DNA from: a virus
DNA length: 64,000 nucleotides
IMG/VR virus record: IMGVR_UViG_3300031954_000001
Location: 44,795-108,794 of that record
Strand: one strand, 5' to 3'
The translations under genes were made by a program, and so were the position numbers. Below, in pieces: positions 7,823-64,000 of the stretch; the stretch's first letter is position 1; each line of letters begins with the position of its first letter. The notes under the pieces were generated by a model. That model ran no database searches. It worked only from the letters and a program-made list of their open reading frames with translations, and was not told the DNA's origin.

Positions 7823-8046
7823 GCGCCCGCGTCCTGAAACTGTTCCGCGACGTGCCCGGCCCGGATGAGCTGACCGCCAAGCGCGGCATCGTCGCCGAGG
7901 CGGTCGTGTTCAGCGACGGCAAGGCCGTACTGCACTGGCTGACCGGGATCGACGTCACCGAGACCTACCCGTCCGAAGACGACATGCGCCTGGTCCGCGA
8001 GCGCAGCGGCCGGTCCCGCTTTATCGAGGCAGGCGGGTCAGCGTGA
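7819..8046 (+). CDS. hypothetical phage protein (GIVAEAVVFSDGKAVLHWL motif)
   Basis: Coupled start; motif typical of small actinophage proteins. Confidence 0.7.
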   Translation: MSARVLKLFRDVPGPDELTAKRGIVAEAVVFSDGKAVLHWLTGIDVTETYPSEDDMRLVRERSGRSRFIEAGGSA

Positions 8047-8462
8047 GCGGCGGGAAACTGGGCGAGCTGCAGACCCGTGCCGCCCGGCTGGTCGCCGCTC
8101 CCGGCATCGACCGGGGAACGCTGGCCGTCAAGATCCGCGAGCTGATCACCGCCGCGCACGAGCTCGGCCGCGAAGAACGCGAGCGCGAGCTGGCCGTCAT
8201 GAGCAGTGACAAGCGGGCCGGGGTCCTCAGCAGGACCCGGCACCCGTCCGCGCTGGCGCTGTCCGACGACGACTCCGAGCCCGAGGCGGATGCCGCGGAG
8301 CAGCGGGCGCAGTTCACAGGCGGCCCGGACATCGGCCCGGAAGTCCTGGCCGACTACCTGAGCGGGCGGGCGTCACAGCCGGGCTGGCCGGTGGAGACCG
8401 GCGAGCCGTTCCGCGGTGCCGCCGAGCGCGAGTGGGACGACTCAAGAGGCGGCGAGCCGTGA
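8043..8462 (+). CDS. hypothetical protein
   Basis: Coupled GTGA start. Confidence 0.65.
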   Translation: MSGGKLGELQTRAARLVAAPGIDRGTLAVKIRELITAAHELGREERERELAVMSSDKRAGVLSRTRHPSALALSDDDSEPEADAAEQRAQFTGGPDIGPEVLADYLSGRASQPGWPVETGEPFRGAAEREWDDSRGGEP

Positions 8463-61023: not shown

Positions 61024-61362
61024 CTAGTCCGGTACAGGCACCGGAACCCTAGCCACATAGTACGGCCGGCCATCGTTGTGCGCCTGATCCCAGCGCCGGG
61101 CCACGACCATGTAGACGACGCTGTCGGCGTAGTCCCGGTCCAGGACCGGCTGCGGCGGGCGGTTGCCCGGGACCTTGCCGAACCGCAGCAGCTGGCCGAT
61201 CCACGGGCCGCCGCCGTTGCCCGCGAGCACGAACCGGACCAGGGGCGGGTGCATGCCGCCGTAGTTGTCCAGGGCCACGGCGTCGATCCAGATCTCCGGG
61301 TCGCCGATACCGCCCGGTGACTCAGCCGGGATCCACCACGCGCCCCGCCACCCCTCGCTCAC
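61024..61362 (-). CDS. hypothetical protein
   Basis: ORF in operon spacing. Confidence 0.6.
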   Translation of the reverse strand: MSEGWRGAWWIPAESPGGIGDPEIWIDAVALDNYGGMHPPLVRFVLAGNGGGPWIGQLLRFGKVPGNRPPQPVLDRDYADSVVYMVVARRWDQAHNDGRPYYVARVPVPVPD

Positions 61363-61374
61363 CAGGTGACGGTA

Positions 61375-61692
61375 TCAGTCCGGCATCCCGCCGGTCAGCG
61401 TCCGGCGCAGTTTCACGAAATGCTCCGCGAACGCCGCCGGGTCATCGGCCGCCCCGAGCGCGGCGATCAGGTCCTGCGCAAGCTGCGGGTTCACGCCGCC
61501 CCCGGTCAGGATCTCCAGGATCTTCGCGGTCGCGGCGTCCGGGGAGTCCTGGCCGACGATGACCACGATGACCTCGACCCCGGGCAGCGCGCCCGTCAGC
61601 CTGCGCGTGATGCTGCCGGCCTGCTCCGCGGTCAGCGGCCCGTCGTACCGGATGGCCAGGGAGTCACCGGGCCGCACCGTCACCTCGTTCAT
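61375..61692 (-). CDS. hypothetical protein
   Basis: ORF from the ATG at 61692 (MNEVTVRPG). Confidence 0.55.
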   Translation of the reverse strand: MNEVTVRPGDSLAIRYDGPLTAEQAGSITRRLTGALPGVEVIVVIVGQDSPDAATAKILEILTGGGVNPQLAQDLIAALGAADDPAAFAEHFVKLRRTLTGGMPD

Positions 61693-61767
61693 GTCACCGC
61701 CATCCGCCTGCTGCCGCCTGGCGCGGGGGCCGTGCTCAGGACATAAGGCTAGGCGTACCGTGGCCTT

Positions 61768-62544
61768 ATGGCCAGGCCCCGTTCCCTGCTGGCCGCAGCC
61801 GTCATCACGCTGCTCGCGGCCGTCTCCGTGCTCACCGCTCCCTCCGCTCACGCGGCCGGCCCGTGCGTCCTGCACTCGGACGGCAACTGCGGCCCGTACT
61901 ACTACCCGGCGATCAGCGCGTCCAACGGGTACACCACCTACACGCTCACCCGGGCGGGCAACGGATCCGGGCCGCAGGTCCTGACCTCGTTCAGCCCCGG
62001 CCGGTGGCACATCGTCAGCCGGCAGCCCGGCGTCCCCGGCAGCGTCGAAGTCGCCTACGCCCAGGTATCGCAGGATTTCACGAACCGGTCCTGGACGCAC
62101 TTCGCGTACATCCGGTCGGGGTTCGCCCAGTCGCTGCCCCGCGCCGGCACCTGGATCGCCGCCTACGACGTGCTGCTGGACGGGCCCGGCCCGGTCACCG
62201 ACGTGACGACCATCACCGCCGAGCGCGGCCACGGGCAGTTCTACCTGGACCAGGTGATCGGCCACGCGGTGATAGGCGGGCGGGCGTACACCGTGTTCCG
62301 GGGCCAGGGCGGATCGGCTGCCTTCGACGCGGACCAGGGCATGACGGCCGGCACCGTGCACCTGCTGGCGGAGCTGCGCTGGCTCCGGGCCCGCGGCCTG
62401 GTCTCGCCCGCGGCCGGTGTCAGCCAGGTCGATTACGGGTTCGGGATCGCCTCCACCGGGCGCGGGGCGGCCACGTTCGCCGTCACCGGGTTCAGCCTGT
62501 CCACCTCCTGCCTGCCCGGCCACGCCGGCGACTGCGGGCCGTAA
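61768..62544 (+). CDS. secreted GH12-like protein lacking the catalytic glutamates
   Basis: Signal peptide ending AHA; AAYDVLL, GTVHLL..LRWL..RG and QVDYGFGIAST match the GH12 layout (AYDIW / EIMIW / GFEI). Confidence 0.65.
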   Translation: MARPRSLLAAAVITLLAAVSVLTAPSAHAAGPCVLHSDGNCGPYYYPAISASNGYTTYTLTRAGNGSGPQVLTSFSPGRWHIVSRQPGVPGSVEVAYAQVSQDFTNRSWTHFAYIRSGFAQSLPRAGTWIAAYDVLLDGPGPVTDVTTITAERGHGQFYLDQVIGHAVIGGRAYTVFRGQGGSAAFDADQGMTAGTVHLLAELRWLRARGLVSPAAGVSQVDYGFGIASTGRGAATFAVTGFSLSTSCLPGHAGDCGP

Positions 62545-62608
62545 AACCGGTTGCGCCCGCCCGTACCATGGGTACATGACCGGGATCCGCGGAGCCGGAA
62601 AACCTGAC

Positions 62609-62638
62609 TTGCATACTGTGTAAGACCTGTGCTAAGGT
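62609..62638 (+). promoter_or_regulatory. sigA-type promoter of the tRNA operon
   Basis: TTGCAT-N18-TAAGGT with TGn extension; the ATG lies 7 nt downstream, as expected for a leaderless start. Confidence 0.7.
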
Positions 62639-62644
62639 AGTGAT

Positions 62645-62740
62645 ATGACGTTCTGGGCAGAGCTAAGCAAGCGAGACGGGTACCACACCCCGTCAGCGCA
62701 GCCGTGCGCACCCATCAATGGGACGGTGGACCTGGAGTAG
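62645..62740 (+). CDS. leaderless 31-aa leader peptide containing all 20 amino acids (MTFWAELSKRDGYHTPSAQPCAPINGTVDLE)
   Basis: Direct translation; lies between the promoter and terminator; not in the ORF track. Confidence 0.75.
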   Translation: MTFWAELSKRDGYHTPSAQPCAPINGTVDLE

Positions 62741-62773
62741 CCGACAAGGCAGCAGCAGGCCGGCCGCCCCAGG
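62731..62773 (+). promoter_or_regulatory. putative antiterminator hairpin
   Basis: CCTGGAGTAGCCG (62731-62743, includes the leader stop) pairs with CGGCCGCCCCAGG (62761-62773, the terminator 5' arm) at 11 of 13 positions, one of them G-U. Confidence 0.6.
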
Positions 62774-62799
62774 GGAAAGCCCCAGGGAGCGGCCTTTTT
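62762..62799 (+). terminator. intrinsic terminator (attenuator) in front of the tRNA array
   Basis: GGCCGCCCCAGGGG-AAAG-CCCCAGGGAGCGGCC followed by TTTTT. Confidence 0.8.
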
Positions 62800-62813
62800 A
62801 ATTACATACACAC

Positions 62814-62891
62814 GGGAGCGTGGCACAGCGGCGACTGCAGCGGCCTCCAAAACCGCCACTTCACACGAGGGTTCGAGTCCTTCCGCTCCTG
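62814..62891 (+). tRNA. tRNA-Trp(CCA)
   Basis: Acceptor GGGAGCG/CGCTCCT, anticodon loop CTCCAAA, T loop TTCGAGT. Confidence 0.85.
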
Positions 62892-62894
62892 CGA

Positions 62895-63113
62895 CTGCCA
62901 GCCAAGGCGAGAGCCGCGGCAGGTACGTGTCATAGCATCTTGAGAACTCCATAGCGTGAGCACCACGCGGCGGGCGCCATCCCGCCGCATACCCGGCGGC
63001 AGATCTTGCCGCCGATGCCAGCCTGCCTCCGAGCGGAGTGCCAGGCTGAGGACGTGCTGAACCTGCCCGAGCCGGTTGTTGCCAGACGGCTCGGTCAGGA
63101 TCAGCGCGCACCA
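62895..63113 (+). ncRNA. structured non-tRNA element within the array
   Basis: At least 5 hairpins; ends in ACCA immediately before tRNA-Ala. Confidence 0.45.
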
Positions 63114-63114
63114 C

Positions 63115-63188
63115 GGGCTGCTAGCTCCAACTGGTAGAGCAACTGCCTTGCAAGCAGAAGGTTCAGGGTTCGACTCCCTGGCGGTCCA
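63115..63188 (+). tRNA. tRNA-Ala(TGC)
   Basis: Full cloverleaf with G3:U70. Confidence 0.9.
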
Positions 63189-63192
63189 CCCA

Positions 63193-63266
63193 CGGGATGT
63201 AGTGAAGTGGCATCACGCTTGGCCTGGGACCAAGTGACGCGCGTCCGATTCGTGCCATCCCGACCA
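63193..63266 (+). tRNA. tRNA-Pro(TGG)
   Basis: Acceptor CGGGATG/CATCCCG; loop CCTGGGA (C33); T loop TCCGATT; encoded CCA. Confidence 0.8.
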
Positions 63267-63267
63267 T

Positions 63268-63344
63268 GGCTCTCTAAAGCTGAGACGGATTAGCTCCGGA
63301 TTGAAGCCCCGGGCAGGCAGGTTCGATACCTGCGGGAGCCACCA
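63268..63344 (+). tRNA. tRNA-Phe(GAA)
   Basis: Anticodon loop TTGAAGC, T arm and encoded CCA. Confidence 0.8.
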
Positions 63345-63345
63345 T

Positions 63346-63420
63346 GCCTTGGTAACACAACGGCTAGTGTTCCAGACTTCCAATCTGGGAATGCCGGTTC
63401 GATTCCGGTCCAGGGCTCCA
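63346..63420 (+). tRNA. tRNA-Gly(TCC)
   Basis: Full cloverleaf, U73 and CCA. Confidence 0.9.
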
Positions 63421-63421
63421 C

Positions 63422-63498
63422 GCTCCGGTAGCTCAGCGGTATGAGCGGCGGGCTCTTAACCCGCGTCGACGGGAGTTCGATCCTCTCCCGGAGCACCA
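63422..63498 (+). tRNA. tRNA-Lys(CTT)
   Basis: Full cloverleaf and CCA. Confidence 0.9.
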
Positions 63499-63499
63499 T

Positions 63500-63577
63500 G
63501 GGCGGGTAAGGCCAACCGGCAGAGCTGGCTCCCTCAAAATGAGCTGAATGAGGGTTCGACTCCCTCCTCGCCCACCA
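63500..63577 (+). tRNA. tRNA-Leu(CAA) with short variable loop
   Basis: Anticodon loop CTCAAAA, A73 and CCA; only a 5-nt variable region. Confidence 0.75.
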
Positions 63578-63578
63578 A

Positions 63579-63655
63579 TGCCCTCTAGTTCAACTGGCAG
63601 AACACCTGCCTCTGAAGCAGCGAGGTTCCTGGTTCGATCCCAGGGAGGGCAGCCA
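63579..63655 (+). tRNA. tRNA-Gln(CTG)
   Basis: U1:A72, G73, anticodon loop CTCTGAA and CCA. Confidence 0.9.
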
Positions 63656-63656
63656 T

Positions 63657-63725
63657 GCCGTCGCGCGCTGGCCGCGGCCTCGCCCTCGTAAGGCGGGAGG
63701 TCCGGTTCGACACCGGAGGACGGCT
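63657..63725 (+). tRNA. tRNA-Thr(CGT), reduced D arm
   Basis: Acceptor GCCGTC/GACGGC, anticodon loop CTCGTAA and intact T arm. Confidence 0.7.
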
Positions 63726-63824
63726 CTATGGTGCGGTACCGGGCCTGCGCAGCCTACCCGGCTTCGCACGTGCGCGCAGCGCCCGCCGGGACCTGGCCGG
63801 GCCTCCGGCGGACCGCACCGATGT

Positions 63825-63870
63825 CCGGGTTTTGGCCTCCGTGACGTTGGTTCGACCCCAGCATCCCGAG
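63825..63870 (+). pseudogene. 3' half of a tRNA-Gln(TTG)-like sequence
   Basis: TTTTGGC loop, T arm GTTGG-TTCGACC-CCAGC, then ATCCCGA-G; no matching 5' strand visible. Confidence 0.4.
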
Positions 63871-63911
63871 CAAAGGCTGTCCCAGATACTCAGCGGCAGC
63901 CAGCAGCTCAC

Positions 63912-63985
63912 GCCCTCATAGCTCAGTAGGTAAGAGCGTGCCCTTGGTAAGGGTGAGGTCCCGCGTTCGATTCGCGGTGAGGGCT
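63912..63985 (+). tRNA. tRNA-Thr(GGT)
   Basis: Full cloverleaf. Confidence 0.9.
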
Positions 63986-64000
63986 CTGAGCCGGTCGGAC

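What the first reader, a model, noticed from the sequence alone, without database searches (positions are those of the whole stretch)
62609..63985. All-20-amino-acid leader peptide attenuator controlling a phage tRNA array (candidate sensor of host tRNA depletion)
Seen in sequence: promoter (TTGCAT-N18-TAAGGT, TGn-extended), then a leaderless ORF at 62645-62740, then an intrinsic terminator at 62762-62799, then the first tRNA at 62814. The 31-aa peptide MTFWAELSKRDGYHTPSAQPCAPINGTVDLE contains every one of the 20 amino acids, and its first 14 residues are all different. By hand calculation, 14 distinct residues in a row has probability about 0.002 under uniform usage, and lower under GC-biased usage. 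The last codons and stop (62731-62743) pair with the terminator 5' arm (62761-62773), so antiterminator and terminator are mutually exclusive. Established knowledge: classical attenuators (trp, his, leu) use runs of one amino acid's codons; host anticodon nucleases (PrrC, RloC, VapC/MazF toxins, PARIS) destroy tRNAs; phage tRNAs can compensate. Inference: this leader inverts the classical design by using about one codon per tRNA. A ribosome that reaches the stop masks the antiterminator and the array stays off; a stall at almost any codon allows read-through and deploys replacement tRNAs. I know of no description of such a system. Caveat: stalls at the last few codons (Val is codon 28) may still mask the antiterminator.
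Basis: partly seen in the sequence, partly recalled or inferred. Interest (0 to 1): 0.97.

Follow-up and report, generated by a model that had tools for sequence, protein, structure and literature searches.

The report
Conserved mini-gene and terminator before phage tRNAs
A family of large soil actinophages keeps a promoter, a tiny reading frame and a transcription stop signal directly in front of its roughly 38-gene tRNA array, which looks like a translation-sensing gate, but the "one codon for every amino acid" design is not conserved and the proposed RNA switch is no better than chance.

Summary

I found the same module in five further distinct relatives (metagenome and IMG/VR contigs). Conserved features:
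- the promoter;
- the ATG at the predicted start site, or an RBS in two relatives;
- in-frame indels inside the ORF;
- a stop codon 21-31 nt before a terminator whose stem covaries and has a T-rich tail.

No promoter fits between terminator and tRNA-Trp, so array transcription must read through. This supports a real leader ORF/terminator gate.

Not supported:
- Relatives' peptides hold 17-20 amino-acid kinds. One phage's leader lacks His, Val and Tyr although its array encodes those tRNAs.
- The antiterminator pairing exists but is no stronger than in shuffled or random genomic sequence.
- The terminator is predicted to form whatever the ribosome position.
- One relative appears to lack the ORF, terminator and tRNA-Trp altogether.

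A host rrn-leader (NusA boxC-like) motif follows tRNA-Trp.

Earlier notes of this scan describe similar cassettes before tRNA arrays in other phage families. I found nothing in print. No expression data could be obtained.

The parts
62603..62638 (+). Host-type promoter. It comprises the core CCTGACTTGCATAC (-35 TTGCAT at 62609-62614), an 18-nt spacer with TGn, and -10 TAAGGT at 62633-62638.
   Evidence: TTGCATAC-N15/16-TA(A/C)(G/A)GT, i.e. TTGCAT, a 17- or 18-nt spacer, then the -10, is conserved in all 7 related loci. The same 14-nt core recurs once more in this genome, at genome position 901-914.
62645..62740 (+). 31-codon leader ORF with its stop codon. The ATG is the 7th nt after the -10, so the mRNA is predicted to be leaderless.
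   Evidence: Homologous ORFs of 31-36 codons occur in L011, L008/L009, L016, L004 and L010. Indels inside the ORF are multiples of 3, whereas those after the stop are not. GC3 is 0.81.
62671..62699 (+). Hairpin H1 inside the ORF. Its core is GACGGG / CCCGTC at 62675-62680 and 62689-62694.
   Evidence: It appears in the MFE and alifold consensus. The L004/L010 counterpart CACGAGGG..CCCGTG has a G-C to C-G change at the closing pair.
62728..62761 (+). Hairpin H2. It spans the last codons, the stop codon and the spacer, and abuts the terminator.
   Evidence: -14.3 kcal/mol. It is part of the MFE and the alifold consensus of the window group. The CCTGG just before the stop is conserved in all six leaders.
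62762..62799 (+). Intrinsic terminator: a GC-rich bulged stem-loop at 62762-62794 followed by TTTTT.
   Evidence: -26.6 to -28 kcal/mol. Equivalent hairpins of -18 to -27 kcal/mol with T-rich tails occur in four other lineages, and their apical stems differ (GGGG/CCCC, GGAGA/TCTCC, CGGA/TCCG).
62814..62892 (+). tRNA-Trp(cca), the first gene of the array. It starts 14 nt after the T tract.
   Evidence: ARAGORN and Rfam. It occupies the same first position in L004, L006, L008, L010 and L016.
62939..62960 (+). rrn-leader mimic CTTGAGAACTCCATAGCGTGAG (boxA/boxC-like, NusA-site-like).
   Evidence: It is conserved after tRNA-Trp in L004, L006 and L016. The pattern hit at least 120 genome loci, and every one listed is from Actinomycetota. 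In two Streptomyces genomes it lies about 180 nt upstream of the 16S rRNA gene.
63115..63986 (+). The rest of the tRNA array, cut by the contig end. It holds 8 further tRNAs called by ARAGORN.
   Evidence: The contig ends at window position 64000. The near-identical relative L006 shows at least 32 tRNAs, and the 190-kb relative shows 38.

Best explanation
The stretch is the conserved leader of the phage's tRNA operon.

Anatomy:
- A host-sigma-type promoter starts a short translated ORF. It is leaderless here and RBS-led in two relatives.
- The ORF ends 21-31 nt before an intrinsic terminator.
- tRNA-Trp and the whole array can only be transcribed by polymerases that read through that terminator.

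Most likely mechanism:
- The module is a translation-coupled attenuator, that is, a gate.
- A ribosome that keeps pace with RNA polymerase and reaches the stop codon melts the hairpin that spans the stop (H2) and its extension onto the terminator's 5' arm. The terminator then forms.
- A late or stalled ribosome leaves that extended hairpin in place for long enough to let polymerase pass.
- Polymerases that pass then meet an rrn-type boxA/boxC-like site after tRNA-Trp. They probably become termination-resistant for the 7-8 kb of untranslated array.

What the leader would report:
- It would report general decoding speed over a compositionally broad ORF.
- It is not a designed one-codon-per-tRNA sensor.

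What is shown and what is inferred:
- Shown: the anatomy, its conservation, and the need for read-through.
- Inferred: translation of the ORF, the direction of control, and the role of the rrn-like site.
For: - The module is conserved in six distinct leader sequences whose neighbouring genes have drifted far. The 112-aa anchor protein of five of them is 57-69% identical to the window's (the near-identical relative L006, whose leader equals the window's, 99%), and the methyltransferase of the L004 record is 51% identical.
- The -35/-10 promoter is conserved. The ATG sits exactly 7 nt after the -10 in four lineages.
- In L004 and L010 the ORF follows GATCGGAGAC, this phage group's own extended RBS motif.
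- Indels inside the ORF measure 6, 3 and 3 nt. Those after the stop measure 2, 1, 1, 1 and 7 nt. The stop is kept as TAG or TAA.
- The peptide evolves fast: 26% identity between the two groups, and pN/pS of 0.2-0.7 on few sites. This fits a regulatory ORF better than a functional protein.
- The terminator hairpin and its T-rich tail are conserved, and the apical stems differ between lineages.
- Only 14-35 nt separate the terminator from tRNA-Trp in five of the six distinct leaders.
- Transcripts truncated before the terminator's 3' arm fold with the 5' arm paired to the last ORF codons, with a ddG of -12 to -13 kcal/mol in the window group.
- The leader occurs once in a 190-kb, 90%-complete relative.
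- No Rfam family matches the leader, and five actinobacterial genomes hold no homologue.
- Leaderless short-ORF attenuators are established in mycobacteria (bioRxiv 10.1101/834739; PMC4633059).
Against: - There is no expression data of any kind.
- The antiterminator is not above chance. The fraction of shuffles doing as well is 0.03-0.13 in the window group and 0.2-0.5 in L004/L010.
- The duplex with the last ten codons is no better than random genomic windows in the window itself (P 0.30) and in L004 (0.41).
- At equilibrium the terminator forms with probability of about 0.9 or more at nearly every ribosome position in five leaders (one low of 0.85). Its apical GGGG-AAAG-CCCC is mostly left free to nucleate.
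- Frame 3 is also open in most leaders, so openness alone means little in this GC-rich DNA.
- Substitutions show no clear codon-position bias.
- L016 carries an HNH-like ORF between the terminator and tRNA-Trp.
- L015 has the promoter joined directly to the rrn-like motif, with no ORF, terminator or tRNA-Trp, so the gate is dispensable in at least one lineage.
Confidence: 0.35

Rival explanations
1. The terminator is a constitutive leaky gate or insulator. It is a fixed partial stop that sets how much of a strong early promoter's output enters the array, and it insulates the array from the upstream gene. The short ORF is translated or not without any effect on read-through.
For: - The terminator is predicted to form regardless of ribosome position.
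- No antiterminator rises above chance.
- The U-tracts are imperfect in most relatives (TTATTC, TTTCTC, TTCTCG), which suggests partial termination.
- L015 does without the module.
- Small ORFs scattered among tRNA genes are common in cultured Streptomyces phages such as Alone3.
Against: - It does not explain why the start codon at the start site or behind an RBS, the in-frame indels, and a stop at a fixed distance from the terminator are kept across lineages.
- A weaker promoter would achieve the same result more simply.
Confidence: 0.28
2. The leader is built to hold about one codon per tRNA species, covering all 20 amino acids. A stall at almost any codon, for example after host anticodon nucleases act, deploys the replacement tRNA set.
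For: - The window and L011 peptides hold all 20 kinds (P about 6.5e-5 per ORF).
- All relatives sit in the upper tail, with 17-20 kinds.
- The array encodes tRNAs for at least 19 of the 20 amino acids (no tRNA-Met is called there, and one call, His(atg), is odd).
- The direction of control is the same as in my best explanation.
Against: - Completeness is not conserved. A close variant lacks Phe, L008 lacks Val, L016 lacks His, Val and Tyr, L004 lacks Val and Tyr, and L010 lacks Lys and Tyr.
- The L016 phage encodes tRNA-His, Val and Tyr.
- In the only sequence-independent lineage the diversity is barely unusual: P 0.03-0.05 against proteome composition and 0.09-0.13 against equal codon usage.
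- Exact cognate codons for 7 of 10 tRNAs has P 0.06.
- The window was chosen because of this property, so it carries ascertainment bias.
- Nothing links the module to tRNA nucleases.
Confidence: 0.08
3. The stretch is a non-coding 5' leader of the tRNA precursor. The ORF is not translated. The hairpins are folding, processing or stability elements, for example protecting the leader fragment after RNase P cuts at tRNA-Trp, or they make a small RNA.
For: - The first 65 nt are conserved at the nucleotide level, including rare A-ending codons (GCA, CGA, CTA) in a genome whose called genes have GC3 of about 0.85-0.98.
- Hairpin H1 is conserved, with one compensatory change.
- pN/pS is not clearly below 1.
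- Another frame is open too.
- The leader fold has a z-score of -3.9.
Against: - The ATG or ATGATG sits exactly at the predicted start site in four lineages and behind the family's RBS motif in two.
- Indels are in frame only inside the ORF.
- The stop is kept as TAG or TAA.
- T-rich tails after the hairpin point to termination rather than processing alone.
Confidence: 0.15
4. The ORF is an independent early gene for a functional micropeptide of 31-36 aa, with its own promoter and terminator. It merely neighbours the tRNA array.
For: - It has its own promoter, start signal and terminator.
- Some residues recur in both groups: an MM start, FW, R-x-G and PC.
- Gene callers have recorded the ORF in public collections.
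Against: - Identity between the two groups is only 26%.
- The C-terminal third is replaced between close relatives.
- The peptide has no hydrophobic segment, no family match in PHROGs and no relatives beyond this phage group.
- This reading leaves tRNA-Trp without a promoter.
Confidence: 0.1

Closest known systems
Leader-peptide (ribosome-mediated) transcription attenuators of amino-acid operons: trpL, hisL, pheL, and the multivalent thrL and ilvL
   Same: - The order is promoter, ORF of about 30 codons, intrinsic terminator, then the controlled genes with no promoter of their own.
- The stop codon lies a few tens of nt before the terminator.
- There is a hairpin inside the ORF.
- A possible alternative pairing involves the terminator's 5' arm.
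   Different: - It controls tRNA genes, not biosynthetic genes.
- There is no run of codons for one or a few amino acids.
- No statistically supported or covarying antiterminator was found.
- The mRNA is leaderless here.
Leaderless polycysteine short-ORF attenuators of mycobacteria (Canestrari et al., bioRxiv 10.1101/834739; background in PMC4633059)
   Same: - The host phylum is Actinomycetota.
- A leaderless short ORF is the first cistron, and ribosome transit through it is proposed to set downstream expression.
   Different: - Those act on translation. Stalled ribosomes free a sequestered RBS of the next gene, and they use Cys-codon tracts.
- Here the downstream genes are untranslated tRNAs behind a terminator, and the ORF has one codon of most kinds.
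rrn operon leader antitermination sites (boxA/boxC; NusA binding to boxC of M. tuberculosis rrn, as summarised in PMC2724277)
   Same: The motif CTTGAGAACTCCATAGCGTGAG after tRNA-Trp matches the motif found about 180 nt upstream of 16S rRNA in Streptomyces, CCTTGAGAACTCAACAGCGTGCC. It includes an AUA-containing stretch.
   Different: - It lies inside a phage tRNA array, downstream of the leader terminator and the first tRNA.
- Binding of Nus factors was not tested.
- Calling it boxA/boxC rests on my memory of the mycobacterial literature. The original papers were not available.
Stress-induced long tRNA array of Anabaena (PMC8421152) and its repressor TrcR (PMC10272220)
   Same: A long tRNA array whose expression responds to the state of translation.
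   Different: It is a cellular array controlled by a ribbon-helix-helix repressor protein. The 2021 paper makes no mention of a leader, terminator or attenuation.
T-box riboswitches
   Same: They are cis-acting leaders that read tRNA status and gate a terminator.
   Different: - There is no T-box or other Rfam match in 61500-64000 apart from the tRNAs.
- T-boxes bind uncharged tRNA directly, need no ORF, and control synthetase or amino-acid genes.

Membership tests
Leader-peptide transcription attenuator | A short ORF lies between the promoter and a terminator, upstream of genes that have no promoter of their own. | tested here: met
   The spacer between terminator and tRNA-Trp is 14-35 nt in five of six distinct leaders, and no promoter-like site was found there.
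Leader-peptide transcription attenuator | The ORF is translated. | tested here: inconclusive
   - For: the ATG lies 7 nt after the -10 in four lineages, an RBS motif precedes the ORF in two, and indels are in frame.
- Against or neutral: another frame is open, and pN/pS is 0.2-0.7 on few sites.
Leader-peptide transcription attenuator | An intrinsic terminator precedes the controlled genes. | tested here: met
   Hairpins of -18 to -28 kcal/mol with T-rich tails occur in five lineages, and their apical stems differ.
Leader-peptide transcription attenuator | A conserved antiterminator excludes the terminator, and its formation depends on ribosome position. | tested here: inconclusive
   - Candidate pairings exist.
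- They are not stronger than shuffles or random genomic windows.
- The arms are too conserved within the window group to covary, and there is no clear counterpart in L004.
- Equilibrium folding keeps the terminator at nearly every ribosome position in five of six leaders.
- Kinetic folding was not testable.
Leader-peptide transcription attenuator | Regulatory codons are enriched for the amino acid or acids sensed. | tested here: not met
   There are no codon runs. The proposed substitute, all 20 kinds, holds only in the window and L011. The others have 17-19 kinds, with different residues missing.
Leader-peptide transcription attenuator | Read-through responds to the supply of charged tRNA. 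| not testable with these tools
   This needs a reporter or infection experiment.
Leader ORF that mirrors the downstream tRNA repertoire (earlier notes of this scan on other phages) | The amino acids of the leader match the tRNA set of the array. | tested here: not met
   The 190-kb relative encodes tRNA-His(gtg), Val(gac, cac) and Tyr(gta), but its leader has no His, Val or Tyr codon. With an array covering at least 19 amino acids (no tRNA-Met called), any diverse ORF 'matches'.
rrn-type antitermination (nut-like) site | The sequence matches the conserved rrn leader motif of the host phylum. | tested here: met
rrn-type antitermination (nut-like) site | It binds NusA/NusB-NusE and makes polymerase termination-resistant. 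| not testable with these tools
   Inference only.
T-box or other known cis-regulatory RNA | It matches a curated covariance model. | tested here: not met
   An Rfam scan at E up to 1 found only tRNAs and chance hits antisense to tRNAs in 61500-64000.

The most novel reading that the evidence does not exclude
The leader is a decoding-capacity gauge for a phage that carries a nearly complete tRNA set.
- Ribosome transit through a short, compositionally broad, rare-codon-containing leaderless ORF decides whether polymerase stops at the terminator.
- If polymerase passes, it is then locked into a termination-resistant state by a copied host rrn nut-like site and transcribes about 38 tRNAs.
- This would be negative feedback between translation speed and tRNA supply, a control logic not described for tRNA genes.
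Probability: 0.15. Interest if true: 0.85.

Novelty: new variant of a known kind. Interest (0 to 1): 0.55.

Why it matters
- Phage tRNA arrays are usually discussed as codon-usage compensation or as a counter to host tRNA cleavage. How their expression is controlled is essentially unknown.
- A conserved short ORF and terminator that every array transcript must pass would show that some phages regulate tRNA supply by sensing translation itself. The rrn-type antitermination mimic that follows would show that they borrow the host's rRNA transcription machinery for long untranslated operons.
- The module is about 200 nt, small enough to test directly in Streptomyces or Mycolicibacterium smegmatis with a reporter.
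- The result also tempers the claim. The eye-catching all-20 composition is a feature of one subclade, not of the family.

Tried and rejected
Searches that found nothing useful:
- Megablast and blastn of the leader against cultured phages found only tRNA matches.
- The upstream 258-aa gene has no relatives in phage or IMG/VR collections.
- A pattern from the tRNA-Trp D-arm and one from the L004 5' UTR each found only the L004 record.
- The promoter pattern found only the L016 record plus three unrelated or chance hits.
- A scan of IMG/VR for the rrn-like motif gave one further, unrelated phage (L157) and no new array.
- Pfam and PHROGs gave nothing for the neighbouring genes apart from a methyltransferase domain and an apiosidase-like domain. 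PHROGs, the only library to which the peptide was sent, gave nothing for it.
- A profile search of 1.84 billion protein representatives found only two peptides of the same family, plus low-complexity noise.
- Five actinobacterial genomes hold no homologue of the leader.
- L013, L014, L007 and L012 carry the anchor gene but other genes or too little flank, so they say nothing.

- The search for homologous proteins refuses queries under 40 aa.
- The two original M. tuberculosis NusA-nut papers are not held.

Readings rejected:
- T-box or another known RNA family, because there is no Rfam hit.
- A terminator serving the upstream gene, because that gene is absent in relatives that keep the terminator.
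- A promoter between the terminator and tRNA-Trp, because there is no room and no motif.

No complex or structure prediction was run, because nothing in the claim depends on one.
Full report
**Setting**

- The window is the last 64 kb of a 108,794-bp linear IMG/VR virus record estimated to be 52% complete. The record ends inside the tRNA array.
- G+C is about 70%. The genes are those of a large tailed actinophage with few database relatives.
- Genes left of 61375 run on the minus strand. A 258-aa secreted-protein gene (61768-62544) and the finding lie on the plus strand.

**Observation**

- The sequence reads TTGCAT (62609-62614), 18 nt ending in TGc, TAAGGT (62633-62638), 6 nt, then ATG at 62645.
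- The ORF 62645-62740 encodes MTFWAELSKRDGYHTPSAQPCAPINGTVDLE.
- Folding 62645-62815 gives a minimum-free-energy structure with a z-score of -3.9. Its last element is the hairpin 62762-62794, followed by TTTTT. On its own that hairpin is -26.6 to -28 kcal/mol.
- The simple consensus scanner reported neither promoter nor terminator. The stem is bulged and the hexamers are non-canonical.
- tRNA-Trp starts at 62814, and ARAGORN calls nine tRNAs up to the contig end.
- Rfam finds nothing but tRNAs.

**Is the composition unusual?**

- Twenty kinds in 31 residues has P = 0.002 under uniform usage. It is about 6.5e-5 under this phage's amino-acid composition or the local base composition.
- Among 287 ORFs of 25-40 aa in all six frames of the genome, the next most diverse has 17 kinds.
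- None of 18,054 windows of 31 aa in the phage's long proteins reaches 20 kinds.
- The peptide is therefore a genuine outlier in its genome. It was, however, noticed after the fact in a very large scan, so relatives are the fair test.

**Relatives**

- The neighbouring methyltransferase led to L004, at 51% identity.
- The 112-aa protein at 61024-61362 is transcribed divergently next to the array in relatives. It has 31 homologues.
- An alignment of these homologues retrieved ten metagenome loci and a 190-kb IMG/VR contig.
- In every locus with enough flank, a syntenic array begins with tRNA-Trp.
- Six distinct leaders result:
  - the window, which is identical to L006;
  - L011;
  - L008, which is identical to L009;
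  - L016;
  - L004;
  - L010.
- Two peptide variants came from a profile search of 1.84 billion proteins.

**What is conserved**

1. Promoter.
   - TTGCATAC, then 15-16 nt, then TA(A/C)(G/A)GT occurs in all seven loci that reach it.
   - Its 14-nt core CCTGACTTGCATAC occurs once more in this genome, in front of a structured RNA at the left end.
2. Start.
   - In the window, L011, L008 and L016, the ATG (usually ATGATG) begins exactly 7 nt after the -10. This is the geometry of a leaderless mRNA.
   - In L004 and L010 the ORF sits behind a 5' UTR of about 140 nt and follows GATCGGAGAC.
   - That motif is the extended RBS (GAWCAGGAGAC) that precedes many genes of this phage, although here the spacing is shorter than the usual 4-6 nt.
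3. Frame.
   - ORF lengths are 31, 31, 33, 33, 36 and 34 codons.
   - Alignment gaps inside the ORF are 6, 3 and 3 nt. Those after the stop are 2, 1, 1, 1, 7 and 3 nt.
   - The stop is TAG or TAA, and CCTGG always precedes it.
4. Terminator.
   - A hairpin of -18 to -28 kcal/mol with a T-rich tail occurs in all lineages.
   - The apical stems differ (GGGG/CCCC, GGAGA/TCTCC, CGGA/TCCG), which is covariation.
5. Spacing.
   - The stop codon lies 21-31 nt before the stem.
   - tRNA-Trp lies 14-35 nt after the tail in five of the six distinct leaders.
6. Copy number. The leader occurs once in the 190-kb, 90%-complete relative.

Together these points show a functional module. They also show that tRNA-Trp, and with it the array, depends on read-through of the terminator.

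**What is not conserved**

- The peptides hold the following numbers of amino-acid kinds:

| Leader | Kinds | Missing |
|---|---|---|
| window | 20 | none |
| L011 | 20 | none |
| P0034 | 19 | F |
| L008 | 19 | V |
| L016 | 17 | H, V, Y |
| L004 | 18 | V, Y |
| L010 | 18 | K, Y |

- The L004/L010 group is the only lineage whose sequence is nearly independent of the window's, at 26% identity or less. Its diversity has P 0.03-0.05 against proteome composition and 0.09-0.13 against equal codon usage.
- The phage of L016 encodes 38 tRNAs, including His(gtg), Val(gac, cac) and Tyr(gta). Its leader nevertheless has none of those codons.
- The all-20 design is therefore a peculiarity of one subclade, amplified by how the window was chosen. 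A modest family-wide tendency to high diversity remains.

**Coding or RNA?**

- pN/pS is 0.2-0.7 on very few sites, and substitutions show no clear third-position excess.
- Frame 3 is open in most leaders as well.
- The first 65 nt are conserved at the nucleotide level, including rare A-ending codons, and they contain a conserved hairpin (H1) with one compensatory change.
- I read this as an ORF that is translated but whose product is not the point. I put translation at about 70%, resting on the start, RBS, frame and stop evidence above.

**The switch**

Enforcing it costs 11 kcal/mol relative to the minimum-free-energy fold.
- A different hairpin, H2 (62728-62761, -14.3 kcal/mol), spans the stop codon and is compatible with the terminator.
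- In transcripts cut before the terminator's 3' arm, H2 extends. Codons 25-29 pair with the terminator's 5' arm, with a ddG of -12 to -13 kcal/mol in the window group and only -5.5 to -7 in L004/L010.
- Shuffling the upstream sequence gives -8 ± 3 kcal/mol. The observed values are reached by 3-13% of shuffles in the window group and by 21-47% in L004/L010.
- Duplexes between the last ten codons and the 5' arm are no better than random 33-nt genomic windows:

| Leader | P against random genomic windows |
|---|---|
| window | 0.30 |
| L004 | 0.41 |
| L008 | 0.16 |
| L016 | 0.10 |
| L010 | 0.014 |

- I simulated a ribosome at every codon by forcing 27 nt to stay unpaired. In five leaders the terminator kept a probability of about 0.9 or more at nearly every position, with one low of 0.85. 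The L010 run used poor terminator coordinates.
- In a 70% G+C genome, a C-rich arm finds partners anywhere. The antiterminator is therefore possible but not demonstrated. Only kinetics, which I could not model, could make it work.

**Natural variants**

- L016 has a tRNA-like remnant and an HNH-type ORF inserted between the terminator and tRNA-Trp.
- In L015 the promoter runs, after about 25 nt, into the sequence that elsewhere follows tRNA-Trp. There is no ORF, terminator or tRNA-Trp. The contig ends about 125 nt later, so whether an array follows is unknown.
- The gate thus appears dispensable in at least one lineage.

**An unexpected neighbour**

- About 50 nt after tRNA-Trp lies CTTGAGAACTCCATAGCGTGAG (62939-62960). 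It is conserved in L004, L006 and L016.
- The pattern TTGAGAACTCNAYAGYGTG hit at least 120 genome loci. All those listed are from Actinomycetota, and many sit at contig ends.
- In two complete Streptomyces genomes the motif lies about 180 nt upstream of 16S rRNA.
- boxC of the M. tuberculosis rrn leader is a specific NusA site in which AUA is critical (PMC2724277). From memory, this motif spans the end of boxA and boxC of that leader, but the original papers were not available.
- My inference is that polymerases which pass the leader terminator are then made termination-resistant for the long untranslated array. That would make the placement of the gate before this site sensible.

**Known systems and novelty**

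- The anatomy matches leader-peptide attenuators. It also recalls the leaderless short-ORF attenuators of mycobacteria (10.1101/834739; PMC4633059).
- Two defining features are not met: regulatory codon runs and a supported antiterminator.
- The nearest printed case of a translation-responsive tRNA array is Anabaena's, which is controlled by a repressor protein (PMC8421152, PMC10272220).
- My literature searches found no leader ORF/terminator control of phage tRNA arrays.
- Earlier notes of this scan describe similar cassettes in Caulobacter, Bacteroidota and giant phages. They are unchecked AI notes, and I did not count them as evidence.

**Verdict**

- The module is real, conserved and interesting.
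- A translation-coupled gate is the best single reading, at about 0.35.
- A constitutive leaky terminator is nearly as likely.

Noticed in passing
window 62939-62960; also the L004, L006 and L016 arrays: A copy of the actinobacterial rrn-leader motif (CTTGAGAACTCCATAGCGTGAG) sits about 50 nt after tRNA-Trp. In Streptomyces genomes the same motif lies about 180 nt upstream of 16S rRNA. This suggests the phage array recruits host rRNA-type antitermination.
   Followed up: yes
L157 (IMGVR_UViG_2738541308_000001), reverse complement around positions 825-850: An unrelated, lower-GC phage contig carries TCTTTGAGAACTCAATAGCGTGAGAC about 70 nt upstream of a protein-coding gene, with no tRNAs nearby. 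The rrn-like motif may therefore be used more widely by actinophages.
   Followed up: partly
window 62603-62616 and genome position 901-914 (outside the window): The 14-nt promoter core CCTGACTTGCATAC occurs exactly twice in the 108.8-kb record. One copy precedes the tRNA leader, and the other precedes a structured RNA of about 430 nt at the left end. Both drive non-coding or barely coding transcripts.
   Followed up: partly
L015:1-215 (minus strand): A relative in which the same promoter is joined, after about 25 nt, to the rrn-like motif region. It has no leader ORF, terminator or tRNA-Trp. The contig ends soon after.
   Followed up: partly
L016 (reverse complement about 7940-8400), equal to L148:200-960: An HNH-type endonuclease ORF and a tRNA-like remnant that repeats the start of tRNA-Trp are inserted between the leader terminator and tRNA-Trp. 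This is probably a homing-endonuclease insertion.
   Followed up: no
window 62893-63114 and 63115-63266, compared with L006: The window's array differs from that of a relative whose anchor protein is 99% identical. L006 has Ala(ggc), Ala(cgc), Pro(cgg) and Pro(ggg) after tRNA-Trp. The window instead has a 220-nt hairpin-rich spacer followed by Ala(tgc) and Pro(tgg).
   Followed up: no
window 63267-63345: This 79-nt gap between tRNA-Pro(tgg) and tRNA-Gly(tcc) is where relatives have tRNA-Phe(gaa). The sequence ends in CCA and looks like a divergent tRNA-Phe that ARAGORN and Rfam did not call.
   Followed up: no
L004 (minus strand) about 2410-2550; L010 equivalent: The L004-type leaders have a 5' UTR of about 140 nt. 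It contains a partial second copy of the start of the leader (CTGGCGAGAGCTAAGCA) and an 11-codon ORF that ends in the conserved GCTAAGC. This suggests a tandem duplication of the leader's 5' part.
   Followed up: no
Leader ORFs of the window, L008, L016, L004 and L010: Every leader contains one CTA (Leu) codon, at different positions. CTA is A-ending in a genome whose called genes have GC3 of about 0.85-0.98, and from general knowledge (not measured here) it is among the rarest codons of high-GC actinobacteria. No tRNA-Leu(tag) is among the 38 tRNAs of the 190-kb relative. By my rough estimate the chance of this is about 0.03 for three lineages, and I noticed it after the fact.
   Followed up: no
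L020:1436-1900 (IMGVR_UViG_3300036766_000363): A similar promoter (TTGCATAC-N11-GTGCTAAGGT) in another viral contig is followed by about 300 nt with no obvious ORF, and then a small Cys-rich ORF.
   Followed up: no
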